Shown one piece after another: positions 13,383 through 43,942 of a stretch of DNA of 64,000 nt (the first letter of the stretch is position 1; each line of letters starts with the position of its first letter). The translations under genes and the position numbers were made by a program. The notes beneath the pieces were generated by a model that did no database searches, was not told the origin of the DNA, and saw nothing but the letters and a program-made list of their open reading frames with translations. Source of the DNA: Candidatus Magasanikiibacteriota bacterium (GTDB lineage: Bacteria; Patescibacteriota; Patescibacteriia; Magasanikbacterales; UBA922); NCBI GenBank assembly GCA_018651085.1, contig JABIEQ010000002.1, forward strand, positions 12,777-76,776, in the 5' to 3' direction.

Positions 13383-13742
13383 TACAATTTAACCTCTAAA
13401 TTTGCCCATTTATTTTATATATAGGGTATTTTTGTGTTATTTGTAATACATAGAAGTTTACACGATAGCACAATGTTATGGTGTTTTTTTATTGTATAGA
13501 GGGCCTCTTTGTACTTGACATATTGCTCATTTTTTGTTATGGTCTCCTGTTGTGATTTGATGAGTTTTTTCGATTTTATCAATCAGTTTTTGTATAAATG
13601 AAAATTGATTGGTGAAATCGAAAGTAAAAGCTATGGCCCGGCCTCACAATCGTGTGAGGTGTCGGCATCCTGAATGGACAGGATGGCTCTGATTGTATCA
13701 GAGTGGAGCCACACTGGCTTATAGAAAGAGAAAGAGGTACAT

Positions 13743-14285
13743 ATGTCTCAAGATGAAGAGATCATCTTGACGTGGACCCCAACGGATAAGAACGCTGTGA
13801 TCACGATCAACAGCTTTCCCTTCCCTGACGGAGAAGCTCTGGAGCTGCGGGGGGTGTCTCGAAGGGGGTATCACCTTTTCTTGCCGGAAAAATCTGGCGG
13901 CGAGCTCCCAAAGATCGAGAAGGCCTTCGGCCTCTGGGCAGGCCAGATCATGGCCAAGGTGGAGCGCCGAATCGTGGTTGCGTTTGAGAGAACGCGAATT
14001 GAAGAACACGATGGATTTTATTTCATCGTTCCTCTTCGCCATGATCTGGTGTCAGCAGACACCGACGGGGACACTCTTCACGAGTTCCCTTTCGACCACA
14101 CCGTCTTCACCGCTCGTTCACAGCTCGGGACGTACCATTTTCGGATGGACATTCCCGACGGGAACGTGGAAGATGTTCGGCAGTCATTGATTGCTTGGGC
14201 CGAAGGTCTCGAGTTCGTGTACCTTTATTGGGACGAACTCGTTGCAACCGATGACCCGAAGCACACCCTCCGCATCTCCCTTTGA
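13743..14285 (+). CDS. hypothetical protein encoded in a GC-rich island (about 55% GC versus about 38% background)
   Basis: 180-aa ORF with protein-like composition; long structured 5' leader; no recognisable motif. Confidence 0.5.
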   Translation: MSQDEEIILTWTPTDKNAVITINSFPFPDGEALELRGVSRRGYHLFLPEKSGGELPKIEKAFGLWAGQIMAKVERRIVVAFERTRIEEHDGFYFIVPLRHDLVSADTDGDTLHEFPFDHTVFTARSQLGTYHFRMDIPDGNVEDVRQSLIAWAEGLEFVYLYWDELVATDDPKHTLRISL

Positions 14286-14457
14286 GTCGTCTAGACTTCC
14301 TCGCGAGCTCTCGCGTATACCTGAGCCGGCGCTTCGTATGTCTGTTAGATACGATTGGCTTCTGTCGAGCTGCCATACTAAATGCTCGACACTTCCCTTA
14401 TCACATTCTTTAATCGAAGGATGTGATATAGAAGAATGCTATTCACTCTATTGAATT

Positions 14458-14490
14458 TAAAAATGATCTTCATATGAAGATCATTTTTTG
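14458..14490. terminator. bidirectional intrinsic terminator
   Basis: aaaaatgatcttcatatgaagatcatttttt perfect hairpin flanked by A/T runs, between convergent genes. Confidence 0.65.
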
Positions 14491-38572: not shown

Positions 38573-38598
38573 AAACAGCCCAACTGGGCTGTTTTTAG
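38573..38598. terminator. bidirectional intrinsic terminator between queA and tgt
   Basis: aaaaacagcccaactgggctgttttt. Confidence 0.7.
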
Positions 38599-39758
38599 AT
38601 CCATTCATTTTTGAGTTCTTGGAATCTATTTTCTTTTATTGCTTCTCGAATTTGTTTTGATAAATTAAGAAGGAAATATAGGTTGTGCATGCTTGCAATA
38701 CTATACGCAAGCAGTTCACTCGTATTAAATAGATGGTGCAGGTATGCACGAGAGTAATGACCAACAGGGGAGTTTTCTAATAATGGATCAATTGTTATTT
38801 TGTCTCGTTTATGAACAGCATTTGTAATATTTATTCTGTAGGTATTGCTTATTTTTTTATGCACGAATAATGTTCCATTTCTTGCCATTCTCGTAGGAGA
38901 CACACAATCAAATATATCAATGCCTTTTTCTACCACATCAAATAAATCTTTTGGGGAATGCCCAAGGCCCATGGTGTAGTGGGGTTTGTCTTCTGGAATG
39001 ATAGGGTTTACCCAATCAAGAATATTTTTTGTGGCTTCCATATTATATCCAACACTTTCTCCTCCAATGGCAATACCATCAAAGTCCATACTAGAAATAA
39101 TTTTGGCGCTTTCTTCTCTAAGATTTTTATGATTTGCTCCTTGAATAATACCGAATAAGAATTGGTTGTATCCGTGATGCTTGGTATTTTTTTTATGTGT
39201 ATCTAAACATTCTTTTGCCCAACGATGCGTTCGCTCCATGGCTTTTTTTGTGTACGTGCTATCTGCTTCGTCTGGGGTGCATTCGTCAAAGGCCATGATA
39301 ATATCAGCTCCTAATTTGTGTTGTGTTTCAATGGCGCTTTTTGGAGTGAATCGATGTTCTGATCCATCGATGTGTGAACGAAAGGTAACACCCTCGTCAT
39401 CAATTTTCACAAGAGGGTATGCATTTGTTCCTTCTTTTTTTTCTTTTTGTTTTCCTAAACTGAATACTTGAAAACCACCACTGTCAGTTAGTATTGGTTT
39501 ATCCCATTTCATGAAGTTATGAAGTCCACCAAATTCGTTAATGGTGTCTTCGCCCGGACGTAGATGTAGGTGATATGTATTGGCAAGAATAATCTGTGCA
39601 CCAATACTGTTTAAATTATTTGTATTAAGACCTTTTACTGTCGCTTGTGTGCCAACCGGCATAAATATAGGTGTCTCAATATCTCCATGATCTGTATGGA
39701 TGATGCCTGTTCTTGCAAGGCTCGTATTGTCTTTGTGAGTGATTTCAAAAAATGACAT
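38595..39758 (-). CDS. tgt: queuine tRNA-ribosyltransferase
   Basis: 387 aa; Tgt conserved blocks (FMPVGTQATVKG, zinc-site Cys/His near C-terminus). Confidence 0.8.
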   Translation of the reverse strand: MSFFEITHKDNTSLARTGIIHTDHGDIETPIFMPVGTQATVKGLNTNNLNSIGAQIILANTYHLHLRPGEDTINEFGGLHNFMKWDKPILTDSGGFQVFSLGKQKEKKEGTNAYPLVKIDDEGVTFRSHIDGSEHRFTPKSAIETQHKLGADIIMAFDECTPDEADSTYTKKAMERTHRWAKECLDTHKKNTKHHGYNQFLFGIIQGANHKNLREESAKIISSMDFDGIAIGGESVGYNMEATKNILDWVNPIIPEDKPHYTMGLGHSPKDLFDVVEKGIDIFDCVSPTRMARNGTLFVHKKISNTYRINITNAVHKRDKITIDPLLENSPVGHYSRAYLHHLFNTSELLAYSIASMHNLYFLLNLSKQIREAIKENRFQELKNEWI

Positions 39759-40176
39759 AGTGTTATGTGTTTGATCCTATCAGAGTTTTGTGTGTTTTTC
39801 AATATATGTTATTTTTTGTATGTTTGCTGTTGACAGTTTTTTTCTGATATGGCAATGTGGATATATACCTATATGAATCAAGCAATTTATACAATGTGTC
39901 ATGACCTCAAGATGTGGAGTATTACGCTCCGCTCTGTTGTGTTTGGTGTGTTTACACCTTTCCGGAGGCATGTTGTATCGAAGTAATTATTTTCTACTTT
40001 TATAAAACAAGCCGCCGGATAAATCTGGCGGCTTTTTTCTTTGTTGTCTAAGAGTGTACATCTTACCTAGTTGTATACCCTTAGGCCCCAACGTATACCC
40101 TTTACACGTGACACGATGATATGGGATTTGGCCTGATCCCACATATATTGTCGTTGTTCTTTTCTGGAGAAGGACT

Positions 40177-40431
40177 ATGGTTCCCTTGCCTCCTGGTGCG
40201 AGTGCTCATTTTTACACCGTCTATGGACGGCGGTTCGATTCTGACGGTAACCCTCTCGACGGAACGTCGACTCCTATGCCTCACCGGCCTGGTGGGTCAC
40301 ACATGGATTTCGGGCCTGACCCCGAGCGACCGAGCCCTCCGGGGGTTCTGCTCGAGTTCACGCTTAAGAAGGATGATGATGGCGAGGCTCCCGCCTCGCG
40401 TCCCGCTGCCCCTGCGGCGGTTGCTCGATGA
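40177..40431 (+). CDS. hypothetical Pro/Gly/Asp-rich small ORF within GC-rich island B (may be non-coding)
   Basis: 84-aa ORF in a 62% GC segment, GGAGAAGG RBS-like upstream; long ORFs arise by chance in GC-rich DNA. Confidence 0.2.
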   Translation: MVPLPPGASAHFYTVYGRRFDSDGNPLDGTSTPMPHRPGGSHMDFGPDPERPSPPGVLLEFTLKKDDDGEAPASRPAAPAAVAR

Positions 40432-40590
40432 TCGAGCGCCCTTCTGACGGTCCATCCGTATCCTCCTCCAACACAGACGGACACTTCATTTGCAAGTGTC
40501 CGTCTGCCCGCCTCATATGTCATAAACATTGTTTGTGGCATATGAAGCGGGTTTGCCTTTCTTTTTTTGTCTGATACAATTATAAACACT

Positions 40591-40935
40591 ATGTTATATC
40601 ATAAGAGTGATGCAAAATCATTTACTATTCCTGGTGGTACTGAAGGTGTATTGTATCCACCTAGCTTAAAAGGGGATCAGAGTGTTGCTGTTATTTCGAT
40701 GGATGGTCATTATCCTAAAGAAGGGTACTCACGAAATGATGTATGTACGGAAACGTTGTATCTTCTTGAGGGGGCATTTGAAATTGAATATGATGGAGCA
40801 TGGCATACACTTATTCCAGGTGACATATTTATGATATTACCTGATCATAAATATAGAACAAAAGGAAAAGGAAAAGCATGTGTATTTATTACTCCATCGT
40901 GGGATAGTGCGCAAAATCATATTACGTTAACTTAA
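40591..40935 (+). CDS. cupin-domain protein
   Basis: Small beta-barrel protein with cupin-like motifs; TTG at 40567, first ATG 40591. Confidence 0.45.
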   Translation: MLYHKSDAKSFTIPGGTEGVLYPPSLKGDQSVAVISMDGHYPKEGYSRNDVCTETLYLLEGAFEIEYDGAWHTLIPGDIFMILPDHKYRTKGKGKACVFITPSWDSAQNHITLT

Positions 40936-42068: not shown

Positions 42069-42763
42069 AGGGTGTGTATAGTTTTTTTGTACATTCCTTG
42101 CAGAATGGTTTTTCCTTTGGTATAGTGAAAAAAGTGAAATATATAATAATGTATGAGATTACTTGGTAAGACAACTCTGTTTATTTCTTTCCCCTGGCAT
42201 GTGGTAGCTTTTTCTTTTCGCCACATTCTGTTTATTGTGGGAGGGAACGGGGTATATGCTTATCAACACGAATGTATGTAGTGGTTGAGTAATAAGATTG
42301 TATACCCCACAGATGTGGGGTATTTTATTTGAGTATGGATAGAAGAAATGATTATCATTTCTTCTATGCGTACGCAAGTACGCAGGCCCCCGCAATACTG
42401 GGAAATATAGCGGTGGGAAGAAAAACACAACACTCTGGGAGTGAGGCTTTCTATCTAACATATATAGGTAAAAGGTCTCATTCCTTCGCTCTTTACCATT
42501 TTACACTGCAAGAGTCACCATTTGGTGGCTTTTTGCTTTGTTGACACCAATTTATTTTTATAGTACGGTATATCGTCGTATCTAAACATAAAGAAAAGCA
42601 TATCTTTATTTGGTATATTTTTCTTTCTTTTTAGTGATTCGTTGCTCGAAAGGAACTGGTCGTGCACTGCGCCAGGCGTATCTGCGAAGCAGTATCTGTC
42701 ATTCTTAGATCCAGCCATAGCGCTGGTGCGGGAGAAAAAGAAATGCCGAACTCGTTGAAATAA

Positions 42764-43249
42764 TTGAAACCGGGGGTTTACCGGCTTCATGATCCTAGTA
42801 GGCCAGGAGGTCGCTGGGAGTGGGTCCGCCTTGATGAGGTATCTCGAATTTTGGGGGTGAGCCCCTCGGACGTGCTAGAGCGGTACAAGCCGCTTTTCTG
42901 GCAACCCGGCGAGGATCTGCTTCAGATGGAGATGTCTCTCATGACCTCTTCTGGTGTGTTCTTGACCCATGTTCCGGGAGATCTTCGTTGGCTCTACGTA
43001 CCGAAGGGGTTCTCTGATGATGTCCTCACGGTCGCTAAACTGGGGATTGATTCTTTCCAAAAAGAGATGATGCCCCACTACATGACTACGGTTCCGCACG
43101 CGACGGTGCGAGCCTTTCGTCCTGTCCGGGGGCAGTGTCTTCTCATCGTGGGATACGTCGGCGAGGAACGCTACGATTCCACAGACGGGCGTAATCTGGC
43201 TCAACCACTCCTCAGGAGCCCCTGGCGCCCCTGTGGTCCTCCCATTTGA
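42764..43249 (+). CDS. hypothetical protein with N-terminal excisionase/AlpA-like HTH motif, in GC-rich island C
   Basis: 161-aa ORF at about 58% GC; VRLDEVSRILGVSPSDVLERY resembles HTH_17 (L..E.A..LGVS..T.YR); overlapping antisense ORF judged spurious. Confidence 0.35.
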   Translation: MKPGVYRLHDPSRPGGRWEWVRLDEVSRILGVSPSDVLERYKPLFWQPGEDLLQMEMSLMTSSGVFLTHVPGDLRWLYVPKGFSDDVLTVAKLGIDSFQKEMMPHYMTTVPHATVRAFRPVRGQCLLIVGYVGEERYDSTDGRNLAQPLLRSPWRPCGPPI

Positions 43250-43942
43250 ACTACAATAAGTCATCACGCATTGCATGGCGTTTGATGCCAGAGGCTTGTC
43301 CTCTGTTGGTTAGCTCATACCTATTTGAGCCGCGTCCTGCGTTACGGATCCTTTCCTTTAATGTCTTAGCGTTGATGCAACAGCTTCTAGGACCCTTCCC
43401 TTTGTTATCTTTTATGTAAAGATGGTAGGGGAAAGTGGGTATAAAGACACTTCACATTTGTGGGGTGTTTTTTGTTGTGGATAACTTATGGATATTTTTC
43501 TTGACCACTGTATATTCATGATGTACAGTACTTATGTTGTGGGGCGACAAGTGTTGTCTCCCCCGTTTTTCTTCCCCGTTACCTGGAGCCCGTTATGAAC
43601 GGCATCCCCAACATCCCTCTCTTCCCGATGGCTTTCCCGGCACACCCCGCGCGCCCGCTGCGTCCGGCCCACCCTGGCATCCCGCACACCCCGTGCTGGC
43701 CCTAGTCTGACGCCGATCGGCGAGAGAGAGATGGACCTTTCCCCTGCGGGGGAAGGATGAAGGCTTTCGGGTCGACCAACGCTGCTTGCAGCCTGGTCGA
43801 CCCGAGGGTTCGATCATATTTCACGCATTGCGTGTTTTTTTTATTGCATTAATTTTTTTATATTGTTGGTAAGGTAATTAAAAACGCCTCAAAGGGCGTT
43901 TTTAATTATGTTCTTTTATGATTGGATTGTTGTTGTTTGTAT

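What the first reader, a model, noticed from the sequence alone, without database searches (positions are those of the whole stretch)
40060..40545. GC-rich island B (about 62% GC) between tgt and a cupin gene: structured RNA or acquired small gene
A segment of about 480 nt is strongly GC-enriched against a 28-38% GC background. It contains several perfect GC hairpins, including tcgacggaacgtcga, gctcgatgatcgagc and the 13-bp stem cagacggacactt/aagtgtccgtctg. Its only ORFs are short and Pro/Gly/Arg-rich, which is what random GC-rich DNA produces. Length and composition are what one expects of a structured ncRNA in an AT-rich genome, as with the RNase P RNA region here. I could not match it to tmRNA, SRP RNA or 6S RNA by eye.
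Basis: seen in the sequence. Interest (0 to 1): 0.55.

Follow-up and report, generated by a model that had tools for sequence, protein, structure and literature searches.

The report
Small acquired GC-rich orphan gene cassette
The GC-rich patch between tgt and the cupin gene is most likely not a structured RNA but a small, foreign-looking gene cassette (ribosome-binding site, 84-codon orphan reading frame, double terminator), one of several such cassettes in this AT-rich candidate-phylum bacterium and its relatives.

Summary
The GC island is real. The core 40177-40431 is 62% GC against a window mean of 37.8% (sd 4.2). The whole flagged span is only 55% GC.

The structured-RNA reading is not supported:
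- No Rfam family matches.
- The ORF segment folds no better than shuffles (z about 0). Only the 3' tandem hairpins are exceptional (z -8.4), and they look like a terminator.
- RNase P RNA in this genome is only 44% GC.
- Relatives do not conserve the sequence.

The island reads as a self-contained + strand unit: GGAG/AAGGA ribosome-binding site, ATG, an 84-codon ORF with significant three-base periodicity (p 4.5e-4), then a 13-bp hairpin and a 22-bp hairpin followed by a T-run.

The genome is a Candidatus Magasanikbacteria (CPR) bacterium whose native genes almost never carry a Shine-Dalgarno motif. Every GC-rich island ORF in it and in relatives does (12/13 against 18/133, p 8e-9). Some island genes have Pfam domains.

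In related species the same slot upstream of tgt is empty or holds a different, unrelated SD-led ORF behind a partly shared leader.

The 84-aa product is an orphan and is predicted to be mostly disordered. Its function and expression are untested. This is a fairly ordinary horizontally acquired orphan gene, with a neat pattern across the clade.

The parts
40005..40038 (.). GC-stemmed hairpin with an A-run before it and a T-run after it. It is a terminator-like element that marks the left limit of the cassette and the end of the AT-rich tgt-proximal spacer.
   Evidence: inverted repeat I3: 16-nt arms, 88% complementary; 11-pair stem followed by TTTTTTCTTTGT.
40073..40102 (+). Two exact 10-nt direct repeats, GTATACCCTT, with starts 20 nt apart, where GC begins to rise. 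Role unknown; possibly an operator or a junction relic.
   Evidence: family D6. The chance of such a close pair is roughly 0.02 by my own estimate.
40121..40149 (+). Weak promoter-like site, ATGGGA-17 nt-TATATT (8 of 12 matches). It overlaps a 7-pair hairpin at 40122-40141.
   Evidence: Read from the sequence. It falls below the scan threshold of 9/12 used. The hairpin is listed. This part is inference only.
40156..40174 (+). Leader GTTCTTTTCTG followed by the Shine-Dalgarno site GGAG (40166-40169) and AAGGA (40170-40174). GGAG ends 7 nt before the ATG.
   Evidence: for the SD. The 11-mer is unique in the window (expected 0.06). It recurs at the same place before the SD of an unrelated ORF in L110/L117/L122.
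40177..40431 (+). 84-codon ORF (B84): MVPLPPGASAHFYTVYGRRFDSDGNPLDGTSTPMPHRPGGSHMDFGPDPERPSPPGVLLEFTLKKDDDGEAPASRPAAPAAVAR.
   Evidence: Gene callers call it on 23 contigs. It is an orphan. AF2 gives pLDDT 61 with one beta-hairpin.
40219..40263 (+). Codons 15-29, VYGRRFDSDGNPLDG. This is the only stretch that resembles known proteins: it matches the core of a roughly 50-aa tandem repeat, consensus GIYARRFDADGNPLGG...
   Evidence: 22.3 bits against my repeat HMM; 0 of 200,000 shuffles exceeded 11.3 bits. No other part of the repeat appears in any frame.
40474..40506 (+). Perfect 13-bp stem with a 7-nt loop and no T-run.
   Evidence: (I4).
40507..40568 (+). Imperfect hairpin with 22-nt arms, followed by TTTGCCTTTCTTTTTTTG. 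It is the intrinsic-terminator-like end of the cassette. The tail overlaps the -35 hexamer of the cupin promoter (TTGCCT-16-TACAAT, 40553-40580).
   Evidence: I1; z -8.4 for 40432-40572; promoter.

Best explanation
Island B is a compact, horizontally acquired single-gene cassette on the + strand of a Candidatus Magasanikbacteria chromosome.

Shown:
- Its layout is a short leader with a canonical Shine-Dalgarno site, an ATG, an 84-codon GC-rich reading frame with codon periodicity, and then two adjacent hairpins, the second followed by a T-run.
- It sits in a variable slot upstream of tgt. In related species this slot is empty or holds other, unrelated SD-led ORFs.
- It belongs to a class of GC-rich, SD-led, mostly orphan genes scattered among AT-rich housekeeping genes that lack SD sites.

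Inferred:
- It is transcribed from a weak promoter near 40121-40149 and terminated at 40507-40568.
- It is translated into a small, mildly acidic, proline-rich, largely disordered cytoplasmic protein with one beta-hairpin.
- It was imported together with the donor's translation signals from a higher-GC, SD-using source, such as another bacterium or a mobile element. Stem-loop and leader sequences at the cassette borders may help cassettes to be swapped.

The protein's role is unknown. My best guess is an accessory, fast-turnover function of the kind carried by phage morons and small genomic islets.
For: Organism and stability. The A180 protein is annotated as Candidatus Magasanikbacteria, and the longest contig is 863 kb. 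The locus is identical on more than 15 independent contigs.

Composition. The core is 62% GC against 37.8% for the window.

Coding signals:
- GGAG/AAGGA lies 7 nt before the first ATG of the frame.
- The nucleotide-by-phase chi-square gives p 4.5e-4 and the Fourier period-3 test gives p 0.003. Position 1 is G-rich and position 3 is A-poor.
- Prodigal-type gene callers annotate the ORF.

Terminator. Tandem hairpins plus a T-run give z -8.4.

Class evidence:
- Only 1-2 of 36 native ORFs in the window have an SD.
- Across clade loci, 12/13 ORFs with GC3 >= 0.5 have GGAG/GAGG before an early start, against 18/133 ORFs with GC3 < 0.4 (Fisher p 8e-9).
- The background rate of GGAG/GAGG before any ATG inside the islands is 8.6%.
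- Other island genes are clearly coding. A180 and the two L012 ORFs score best in frame. The L096 gene is PP2C-like and the L102 gene is PRPP-synthetase-like.
- Of 38 other AT-rich tgt loci from other phyla, none has such an island.

Variable slot. The slot is empty in L098, L099, L108, L124 and L012. It holds different SD-led ORFs in L103 (80 aa), L110/L117/L122 (183 aa) and L119 (97 aa). The ORF bodies are unrelated, but the leaders share short homology.

Against an RNA. There is no Rfam match, and the ORF segment has a fold z near 0.
Against: - There is no homologue of the 84-aa protein other than itself and one R84P variant among 5.8 billion proteins. Selection on the protein therefore cannot be measured, and all population copies are 99.7-100% identical.
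- My Markov coding model, trained on ordinary GC-rich genes, scores the B84 frame at -18.9. That is below the 1st percentile of real 255-nt coding chunks, and the model slightly prefers the 108-aa frame at -4.9.
- GC3 (0.55) is lower than GC1 and GC2, which is unusual for a gene from a GC-rich donor.
- NCBI's pipeline calls no gene here (L094).
- AF2 predicts mostly disorder.
- An 84-codon ORF is not surprising at 62% GC; three ORFs overlap here.
- No promoter reaches the scan threshold upstream.
- The phmmer E-values for the repeat motif are inflated by summing over repeats. A single 15-aa match is not significant in a library of that size (my own estimate).
- No donor was identified.
Confidence: 0.6

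Rival explanations
1. The island is imported DNA that is now inert. It would be a fragment or decaying relic of a foreign gene, for example a piece of a repeat-protein gene or a mobile-element gene. Its ORF, SD and periodicity would be leftovers from the donor, and it would make no functional product in this SD-independent host.
For: - Orphan status.
- Poor score in the coding model.
- Disorder prediction.
- Only one 15-aa stretch resembles a known repeat, and the rest of that repeat is missing in all frames.
- Native genes do not use SD sites, so the signal may be useless here.
- Island C is also ambiguous: its frame and strand are unclear and there is no SD at the TTG start.
- PGAP calls nothing here.
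Against: - The frame is intact from the first ATG after an SD through to a stop, and a terminator follows directly.
- The cassette is fixed and identical in every sampled population.
- Small streamlined CPR genomes are expected to delete useless DNA quickly (general knowledge).
- Relatives keep intact SD-led ORFs in the same slot.
Confidence: 0.22
2. The island encodes a structured non-coding RNA, either an sRNA or a larger ncRNA. Its GC richness would reflect base-paired stems in an AT-rich genome.
For: - The GC excess is strong.
- Folding 40100-40520 as a whole gives z -4.1 (+) and -5.8 (-).
- There are several perfect short hairpins.
- The 5' region 40040-40200 has z -2.4.
Against: - No Rfam match among 4227 families, even at E up to 10.
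- The central 255 nt fold like shuffles. The excess structure is confined to terminator-like 3' hairpins.
- Three-base periodicity is present.
- An SD and ATG sit at the start of the ORF.
- The GC excess lies mainly in codon positions 1 and 2, so it tracks amino-acid composition.
- A known structured RNA in this genome, RNase P RNA, is only 44% GC.
- Sister islands are demonstrably protein genes.
- The sequence is not conserved in relatives.
Confidence: 0.08
3. A different reading frame is the real gene. The candidates are the 108-aa ORF 40121-40447 (+), with a hydrophobic N-terminus, and the 102-aa ORF 40281-40589 (-).
For: The 108-aa frame scores best of the six in my coding model (-4.9). 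It also has the highest GC at its third position (0.66).
Against: - The 108-aa ORF has no SD and its ATG context is poor.
- Its product is rich in Arg, Leu, Ser and Cys, as out-of-frame translation of GC-rich genes usually is.
- The minus-strand ORF starts inside the cupin promoter and reads through both terminator hairpins.
- All frame scores are negative.
Confidence: 0.05

Closest known systems
Phage 'morons' and small genomic islets (autonomous promoter-gene-terminator units of atypical composition inserted between resident genes; recalled from Hendrix and colleagues, about 2000, not read here)
   Same: It is a single small ORF with its own translation signal and terminator. Its base composition is very different from its neighbours. 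It sits between two unrelated resident genes, is present in one lineage and absent in relatives, and has an orphan product.
   Different: It lies in a bacterial core chromosome region among housekeeping genes, not in a prophage. No phage, integrase or transposase genes are nearby. The promoter is only weakly supported.
Horizontally acquired genes and genomic islands in Patescibacteria (PMC12455944)
   Same: The paper reports HGT as common in CPR genomes, covering up to 13% of genome length, with donors that are mostly other Patescibacteria. Island B has the classical compositional signature of a transfer.
   Different: The units here are tiny (0.4-1.3 kb, one gene), not multi-gene islands. Nearly all are orphans. 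They are marked by SD sites in an SD-poor host, a feature I did not find described.
Modular shuffling of small orphan ORFs through promoter/stem-loop cassettes (PeSLs) in the hyperplastic regions of T4-type phages (recalled from Arbiol et al. 2010, not read here)
   Same: Unrelated small ORFs occupy the same slot in related genomes. They are bordered by stem-loops and by a short shared regulatory leader.
   Different: No repeated border motif common to all cassettes was found. The host is a cellular genome. Recombination at the borders is only a conjecture.
GC-rich structured ncRNAs found by composition screens in AT-rich genomes (recalled from Klein, Misulovin and Eddy 2002, not read here)
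   Same: A local GC peak in an AT-rich genome.
   Different: There is no family match, no excess folding in the body and no conservation, and codon periodicity is present.
The roughly 50-aa tandem repeat family with consensus GIYARRFDADGNPLGGEFQVNTYTTGDQRDPSVAALADGGFVVVWESD, found in large secreted proteins (P0005-P0023)
   Same: B84 residues 15-29, VYGRRFDSDGNPLDG, match the repeat core at 22 bits. AF2 puts a beta-hairpin there.
   Different: Only 15 of 48 repeat positions match, there is a single copy, and the rest is absent in all frames. The library E-values are inflated by repeat summation.

Membership tests
Any Rfam family (tmRNA, SRP, 6S, GOLLD, ROOL, HEARO, group I/II introns and others) | Covariance-model score at or above the family's gathering threshold | tested here: not met
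   The whole window at gathering thresholds gives only RNase P and three tRNAs. For 39800-40800 at E up to 10, the best hit is 24 bits against thresholds of 55-97, and all such hits sit on the 40005-40038 terminator.
Structured ncRNA in general | Folding energy clearly better than shuffled sequence across the body of the element | tested here: not met
   The ORF body has z -0.05/-0.27. Only the 3' hairpins stand out (z -4.2 and -8.4).
Structured ncRNA in general | Conservation with compensatory base changes in related genomes | tested here: not met
   No related copy exists apart from near-identical population copies. Relatives with tgt 57-80% identical carry other sequences or nothing at that position.
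Protein-coding gene | Open frame beginning at a start codon preceded by a ribosome-binding site | tested here: met
   GGAG at -11 and AAGGA at -7 lie before the first ATG of the frame. GGAG/GAGG precedes only 8.6% of ATGs in the islands.
Protein-coding gene | Three-base periodicity or codon-like composition | tested here: inconclusive
   Periodicity is significant (p 4.5e-4 and 0.003). However, a Markov model trained on ordinary GC-rich genes scores the frame at -18.9.
Protein-coding gene | Conserved protein homologues or purifying selection | tested here: not met
   Only the protein itself and an R84P variant turn up among 5.8 billion proteins, and only a 15-aa motif match among 1.84 billion representatives. 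There are no Pfam, PHROG, PADLOC, NCBIfam or PDB hits.
Horizontally acquired gene or islet | Composition and expression signals unlike the host's, with patchy presence among relatives | tested here: met
   GC is about 5 sd above the window mean. GC3 is 0.55 against 0.19-0.28 in the neighbours. An SD is present whereas native genes lack one. The slot is empty or differently filled in relatives.
Horizontally acquired gene or islet | Identifiable donor or mobility genes | tested here: not met
   There is no match in viral contigs or phage records. The plasmid collection was searched only with the PP2C-like protein of the L096 island, which gave hits of at most 31% identity. No integrase or transposase was seen among the neighbours that were scanned.
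Phage moron | Own promoter and terminator flanking one gene, inside a prophage or phage genome | tested here: not met
   A terminator is present. The promoter matches only 8/12, below the scan threshold. The context is housekeeping genes, not a phage.
Integron gene cassette | 3' attC site with R''/R' core sites (RYYYAAC...GTTRRRY), cassette arrays and an IntI integrase | tested here: not met
   The 3' hairpins have no such terminal core sites (read). The cassettes are isolated, and no integrase was seen among the neighbours scanned.
RFDxxGNPL roughly 50-aa repeat proteins | Tandem copies of the full repeat of about 48 positions | tested here: not met
   There is one partial match to positions 2-16 only and nothing else in the six frames.

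The most novel reading that the evidence does not exclude
The position upstream of tgt would be a dedicated cassette-exchange site in this Magasanikbacteria clade. Unrelated GC-rich, SD-led orphan ORFs are swapped in behind a partly conserved stem-loop/leader/SD platform: GTTCTTTTCTG plus the SD is shared by the window and L117, and about 30 nt is shared by L117 and L103. This would imply an unrecognised gene-capture or shuffling mechanism in CPR bacteria that works without a known integrase or attC site. Alternatively, it would imply a class of genes built with foreign-type expression signals for a special purpose.
Probability: 0.1. Interest if true: 0.7.

Novelty: new member of a known kind. 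Interest (0 to 1): 0.38.

Why it matters
For the scan, the result shows that in this lineage a sharp GC peak marks an imported protein-coding cassette, not a structured RNA. Composition alone is therefore a poor ncRNA detector here.

Biologically, the contrast between SD-less native genes and SD-led GC-rich orphans in several Magasanikbacteria gives a simple two-feature signature for recent gene acquisition in streamlined CPR genomes. It also raises the question of how, or whether, such genes are translated in a host that does not normally use SD sites.

The different cargo found at the same tgt-adjacent slot in sister species points to a small hot spot of gene turnover. That hot spot could be studied once more genomes of the clade are available.

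Tried and rejected
Family and similarity searches that found nothing for the island ORFs:
- Rfam at gathering and lenient thresholds on island B and on islands A and C.
- Pfam, PHROGs, PADLOC, NCBIfam and PDB sequence searches.
- Word-indexed searches of 5.8 billion proteins with B84, A180 and C161, which returned only the proteins themselves.
- Scans of viral contigs, phage records and plasmids.

Full HMMER search with B84. It returned only a repeat-motif match. I rejected its E-values as proof of homology because they sum many copies of one short match. My own HMM and shuffle test gives 22 bits, which I treat as suggestive.

Population comparison for dN/dS. There were only 5 SNPs in 10 kb across 15 contigs, three of them near low-coverage contig ends, so the comparison is uninformative.

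Scans for relatives:
- The genome-contig scan with tgt found a nearest species at 64% identity.
- The metagenome scan with the M24 peptidase found nothing.
- A hand-made tgt-motif DNA probe finally gave clade relatives.

Island-against-island DNA and translated comparisons found no shared family and no flanking target duplications.

AF2 single-sequence models. B84 had pLDDT 61 and A180 had pLDDT 41. Both are too poor for fold search, so none was run.

Ideas considered and dropped:
- A retron or DGR: no reverse transcriptase was seen among the neighbours scanned, and no template repeat was found.
- An attenuator for the cupin gene: no alternative pairing is evident.
- An invertible segment: only weak flanking inverted repeats.
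- An HNH-endonuclease reading of the L117 183-aa ORF: no Pfam support.
- Multiple alignment of the spacers, which was too poor to define homology limits.

Full report
**What is there.** The flagged span lies between tgt (38595-39758, minus strand, PF01702) and a weak Cupin_2 gene (40591-40935) that is followed by an M24 peptidase gene. GC rises from about 37% to 62% in 40177-40431, and one 60-nt window starting at 40380 reaches 75%. The full flagged span is 54.9% GC. The window mean for 360-nt windows is 37.8% with sd 4.2. The observation therefore holds, with a smaller core than stated.

**Whose genome.** The exact 84-aa product is on record on 23 contigs from many samples, the longest 863 kb. 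The 180-aa product of a second GC-rich island in the window is annotated in NCBI as Candidatus Magasanikbacteria. All copies of the locus are 99.7-100% identical over up to 10 kb. Chimeric assembly is therefore excluded, but population data carry no evolutionary signal. The surrounding genes are core housekeeping genes: queA, tgt, aminoacyl-tRNA synthetases, rplS, rpmE, ndk, bactofilin and others. No integrase or transposase was found among those scanned.

**The RNA hypothesis.**
- No Rfam family reaches its threshold anywhere in the three islands. Lenient hits near island B all sit on a terminator hairpin at 40005-40038.
- Folding 40100-40520 as a whole gives z -4.1 and -5.8. Segment by segment, the 255-nt ORF body folds like its shuffles (z -0.05 and -0.27). 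The signal is confined to the 3' end, with z -4.2 for 40425-40520 and z -8.4 for 40432-40572.
- The 3' end consists of the perfect 13-bp hairpin followed directly by a second hairpin with 22-nt arms and TTTGCCTTTCTTTTTTTG. That is a terminator-like arrangement abutting the cupin promoter.
- The analogy with RNase P RNA fails, because that RNA is 43.7% GC here.

**The coding hypothesis, evidence for.**
- The 84-codon frame starts at the first ATG after an in-frame stop. GGAG and AAGGA precede it at ideal spacing.
- Nucleotide use differs by codon phase (chi-square p 4.5e-4, Fourier period-3 p 0.003). Position 1 is G-rich and position 3 is T-rich and A-poor.
- The GC excess sits in positions 1 and 2, so it reflects Pro, Gly, Ala, Arg and Asp content.

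**The coding hypothesis, evidence against.**
That is below the 1st percentile of real coding chunks. The model does recover the frames of A180 and of two GC-rich ORFs in a relative.
- The protein has no family, phage, defence or PDB match.
- It has no homologue in 5.8 billion proteins.
- AF2 predicts disorder apart from a beta-hairpin at residues 12-21.

**The repeat motif.** The exhaustive HMMER search found 19 proteins that all match residues 12-30 to a roughly 50-aa tandem repeat. Those E-values add up many copies of one short match, and I do not accept them as proof of homology. Against an HMM of 196 repeat copies, B84 scores 22.3 bits over 15 positions, while none of 200,000 shuffles exceeded 11.3 bits. 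No other part of the repeat is present in any frame. I treat this as a suggestive motif.

**Context that decides the matter.** The window holds two more GC-rich islands, A (about 13630-14400) and C (about 42640-43830). An extension of the same genome holds a fourth (L096 1-1230), and the nearest species representative (L012, tgt 64% identical) holds two. None of 38 other AT-rich tgt loci from other bacteria has one.

Several of these islands are clearly protein genes:
- A180 and both L012 ORFs score best in frame.
- The L096 gene is PP2C-like and an L102 gene is PRPP-synthetase-like.

Native genes of this genome almost never have a Shine-Dalgarno motif: 1-2 of 36 do, and ribosomal protein genes are among those without one. 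Every island ORF has one. In a systematic count over the window and 15 related sequences, 12 of 13 ORFs with GC3 of at least 0.5 have GGAG/GAGG before an early start, against 18 of 133 ORFs with GC3 below 0.4 (Fisher p 8e-9). Three of the related loci (L110, L117, L122) share two ORFs, so the 13 include repeats and about 9 are distinct. The background rate before any ATG inside the islands is 8.6%. GC-rich islands in this clade are therefore imported protein-coding units that kept foreign-type translation signals.

**The slot.** A back-translated tgt motif retrieved 30 metagenome loci of the clade.
- In five species (L098, L099, L108, L124, L012), tgt directly abuts a C39-like peptidase gene.
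- In L103 (tgt 80% identical), an 80-aa Cys-rich, 56% GC ORF is inserted there. It has AGGAGG before it and a hairpin plus a hairpin-with-T-run after it.
- In L110/L117/L122 (tgt 76-79%), the slot holds a 183-aa, 53% GC ORF behind AGGAGG.
- In L119, it holds a 97-aa SD-led ORF.
- In the window, it holds B84.

The ORF bodies are unrelated, but the leaders share short homology. GTTCTTTTCTG lies just before the SD both in the window (40156-40166) and in L117. This 11-mer occurs once in the window (0.06 expected) and gave only two chance hits among all the other loci held. L117 and L103 share about 30 nt. Multiple alignments of the spacers are too poor to set limits.

**Verdict.** Island B is best read as a small acquired cassette encoding an orphan 84-aa protein (confidence 0.6). 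The rivals are:
- an inert imported relic (0.22);
- a structured RNA (0.08);
- another reading frame (0.05).

It works like a phage moron or genomic islet, but it is not in a phage and shows no mobility gene. HGT islands are known in Patescibacteria (PMC12455944). I found no description of the SD contrast. Expression, function and donor remain untested.

Noticed in passing
window 13515-14488: GC-rich island A. It has a promoter-like site TTGACA-17-TATGGT (13515-13543) and a 5' leader with three consecutive perfect 7-bp hairpins (about 13640-13700; z -5.4 for 13620-13760). An SD (GAGG) precedes a 180-aa orphan ORF (13743-14285, GC3 0.64, best in frame in the coding model), and a terminator lies at 14459-14488. 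The structured leader might be regulatory.
   Followed up: partly
window 42640-43260: GC-rich island C1. A 161-aa ORF (42764-43249, + strand) has a TTG start and no SD, and it overlaps a 133-aa minus-strand ORF that gene callers prefer. Frame and strand are ambiguous (coding scores -4.8 against -11.7). It is an orphan. This may be a decaying gene.
   Followed up: partly
window 43500-43835: GC-rich island C2. It has a promoter-like site TTGACC-17-TACAGT and a leader hairpin with a T-run (43541-43560). CTGGAG precedes a 36-aa proline-rich ORF (43595-43705), followed by long GC hairpins and a terminator (43822-43834). It folds strongly (z -3.9 on the + strand) and shows no three-base periodicity (p 0.6). 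Of all the islands it is the most RNA-like. There is no Rfam match.
   Followed up: partly
window-wide; L012; L096; L102; L117: Native AT-rich genes of this Magasanikbacteria clade, including ribosomal protein genes, essentially lack Shine-Dalgarno motifs. GC-rich ORFs almost always have one (12/13 against 18/133).
   Followed up: yes
window 40392-40499 and 43157-43722: Contigs from independent assemblies repeatedly start or end inside the GC-rich islands: at 40392, 40434, 40474, 40484 and 40498, and at 43157, 43292 and 43722. This fits coverage dips from GC bias at low depth, or strain heterogeneity at the islands. The two could not be told apart.
   Followed up: partly
window 39759-40040: The AT-rich 280-nt spacer between tgt and island B ends in a terminator usable in either direction (40005-40038). 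Gene callers place a 63-aa minus-strand ORF there (39780-39971). There is no family match and only chance-level Rfam hits. It could hold a small RNA or a small protein.
   Followed up: no
L103 730-1230; L117 7770-8480; L119: In sister species the same tgt-upstream slot carries other small SD-led ORFs: 80 aa and Cys-rich (zinc-ribbon-like), 183 aa, and 97 aa. L103 compared with L098 looks like a clean insertion immediately before the start codon of the C39-like peptidase gene.
   Followed up: partly
L112 2000-3000: A roughly 50% GC island in a relative (tgt 62% identical) has no convincing ORF. It does have odd short repeats (cacgtaacac / atcacata motifs) and a GGGGGAG-led 93-aa Arg-rich frame. 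It may be a decayed cassette or something else.
   Followed up: no
P0005-P0023 (library proteins): A widespread tandem repeat of about 50 aa (GIYARRFDADGNPLGGEFQVNTYTT..DP.VA...DG.FVVVW.S..QDG) occurs in large, apparently secreted proteins. Pfam assigns it no proper family and gives only fragmentary, unrelated hits. It appears to be an uncurated repeat family.
   Followed up: partly
window 39830-39858 and 40553-40580: The cupin promoter region and a site 727 nt upstream share GTTTGC...TTTTTTT...CTGATA...CAAT on either side of the spacer plus island. This could be a duplicated promoter or a common promoter type.
   Followed up: no
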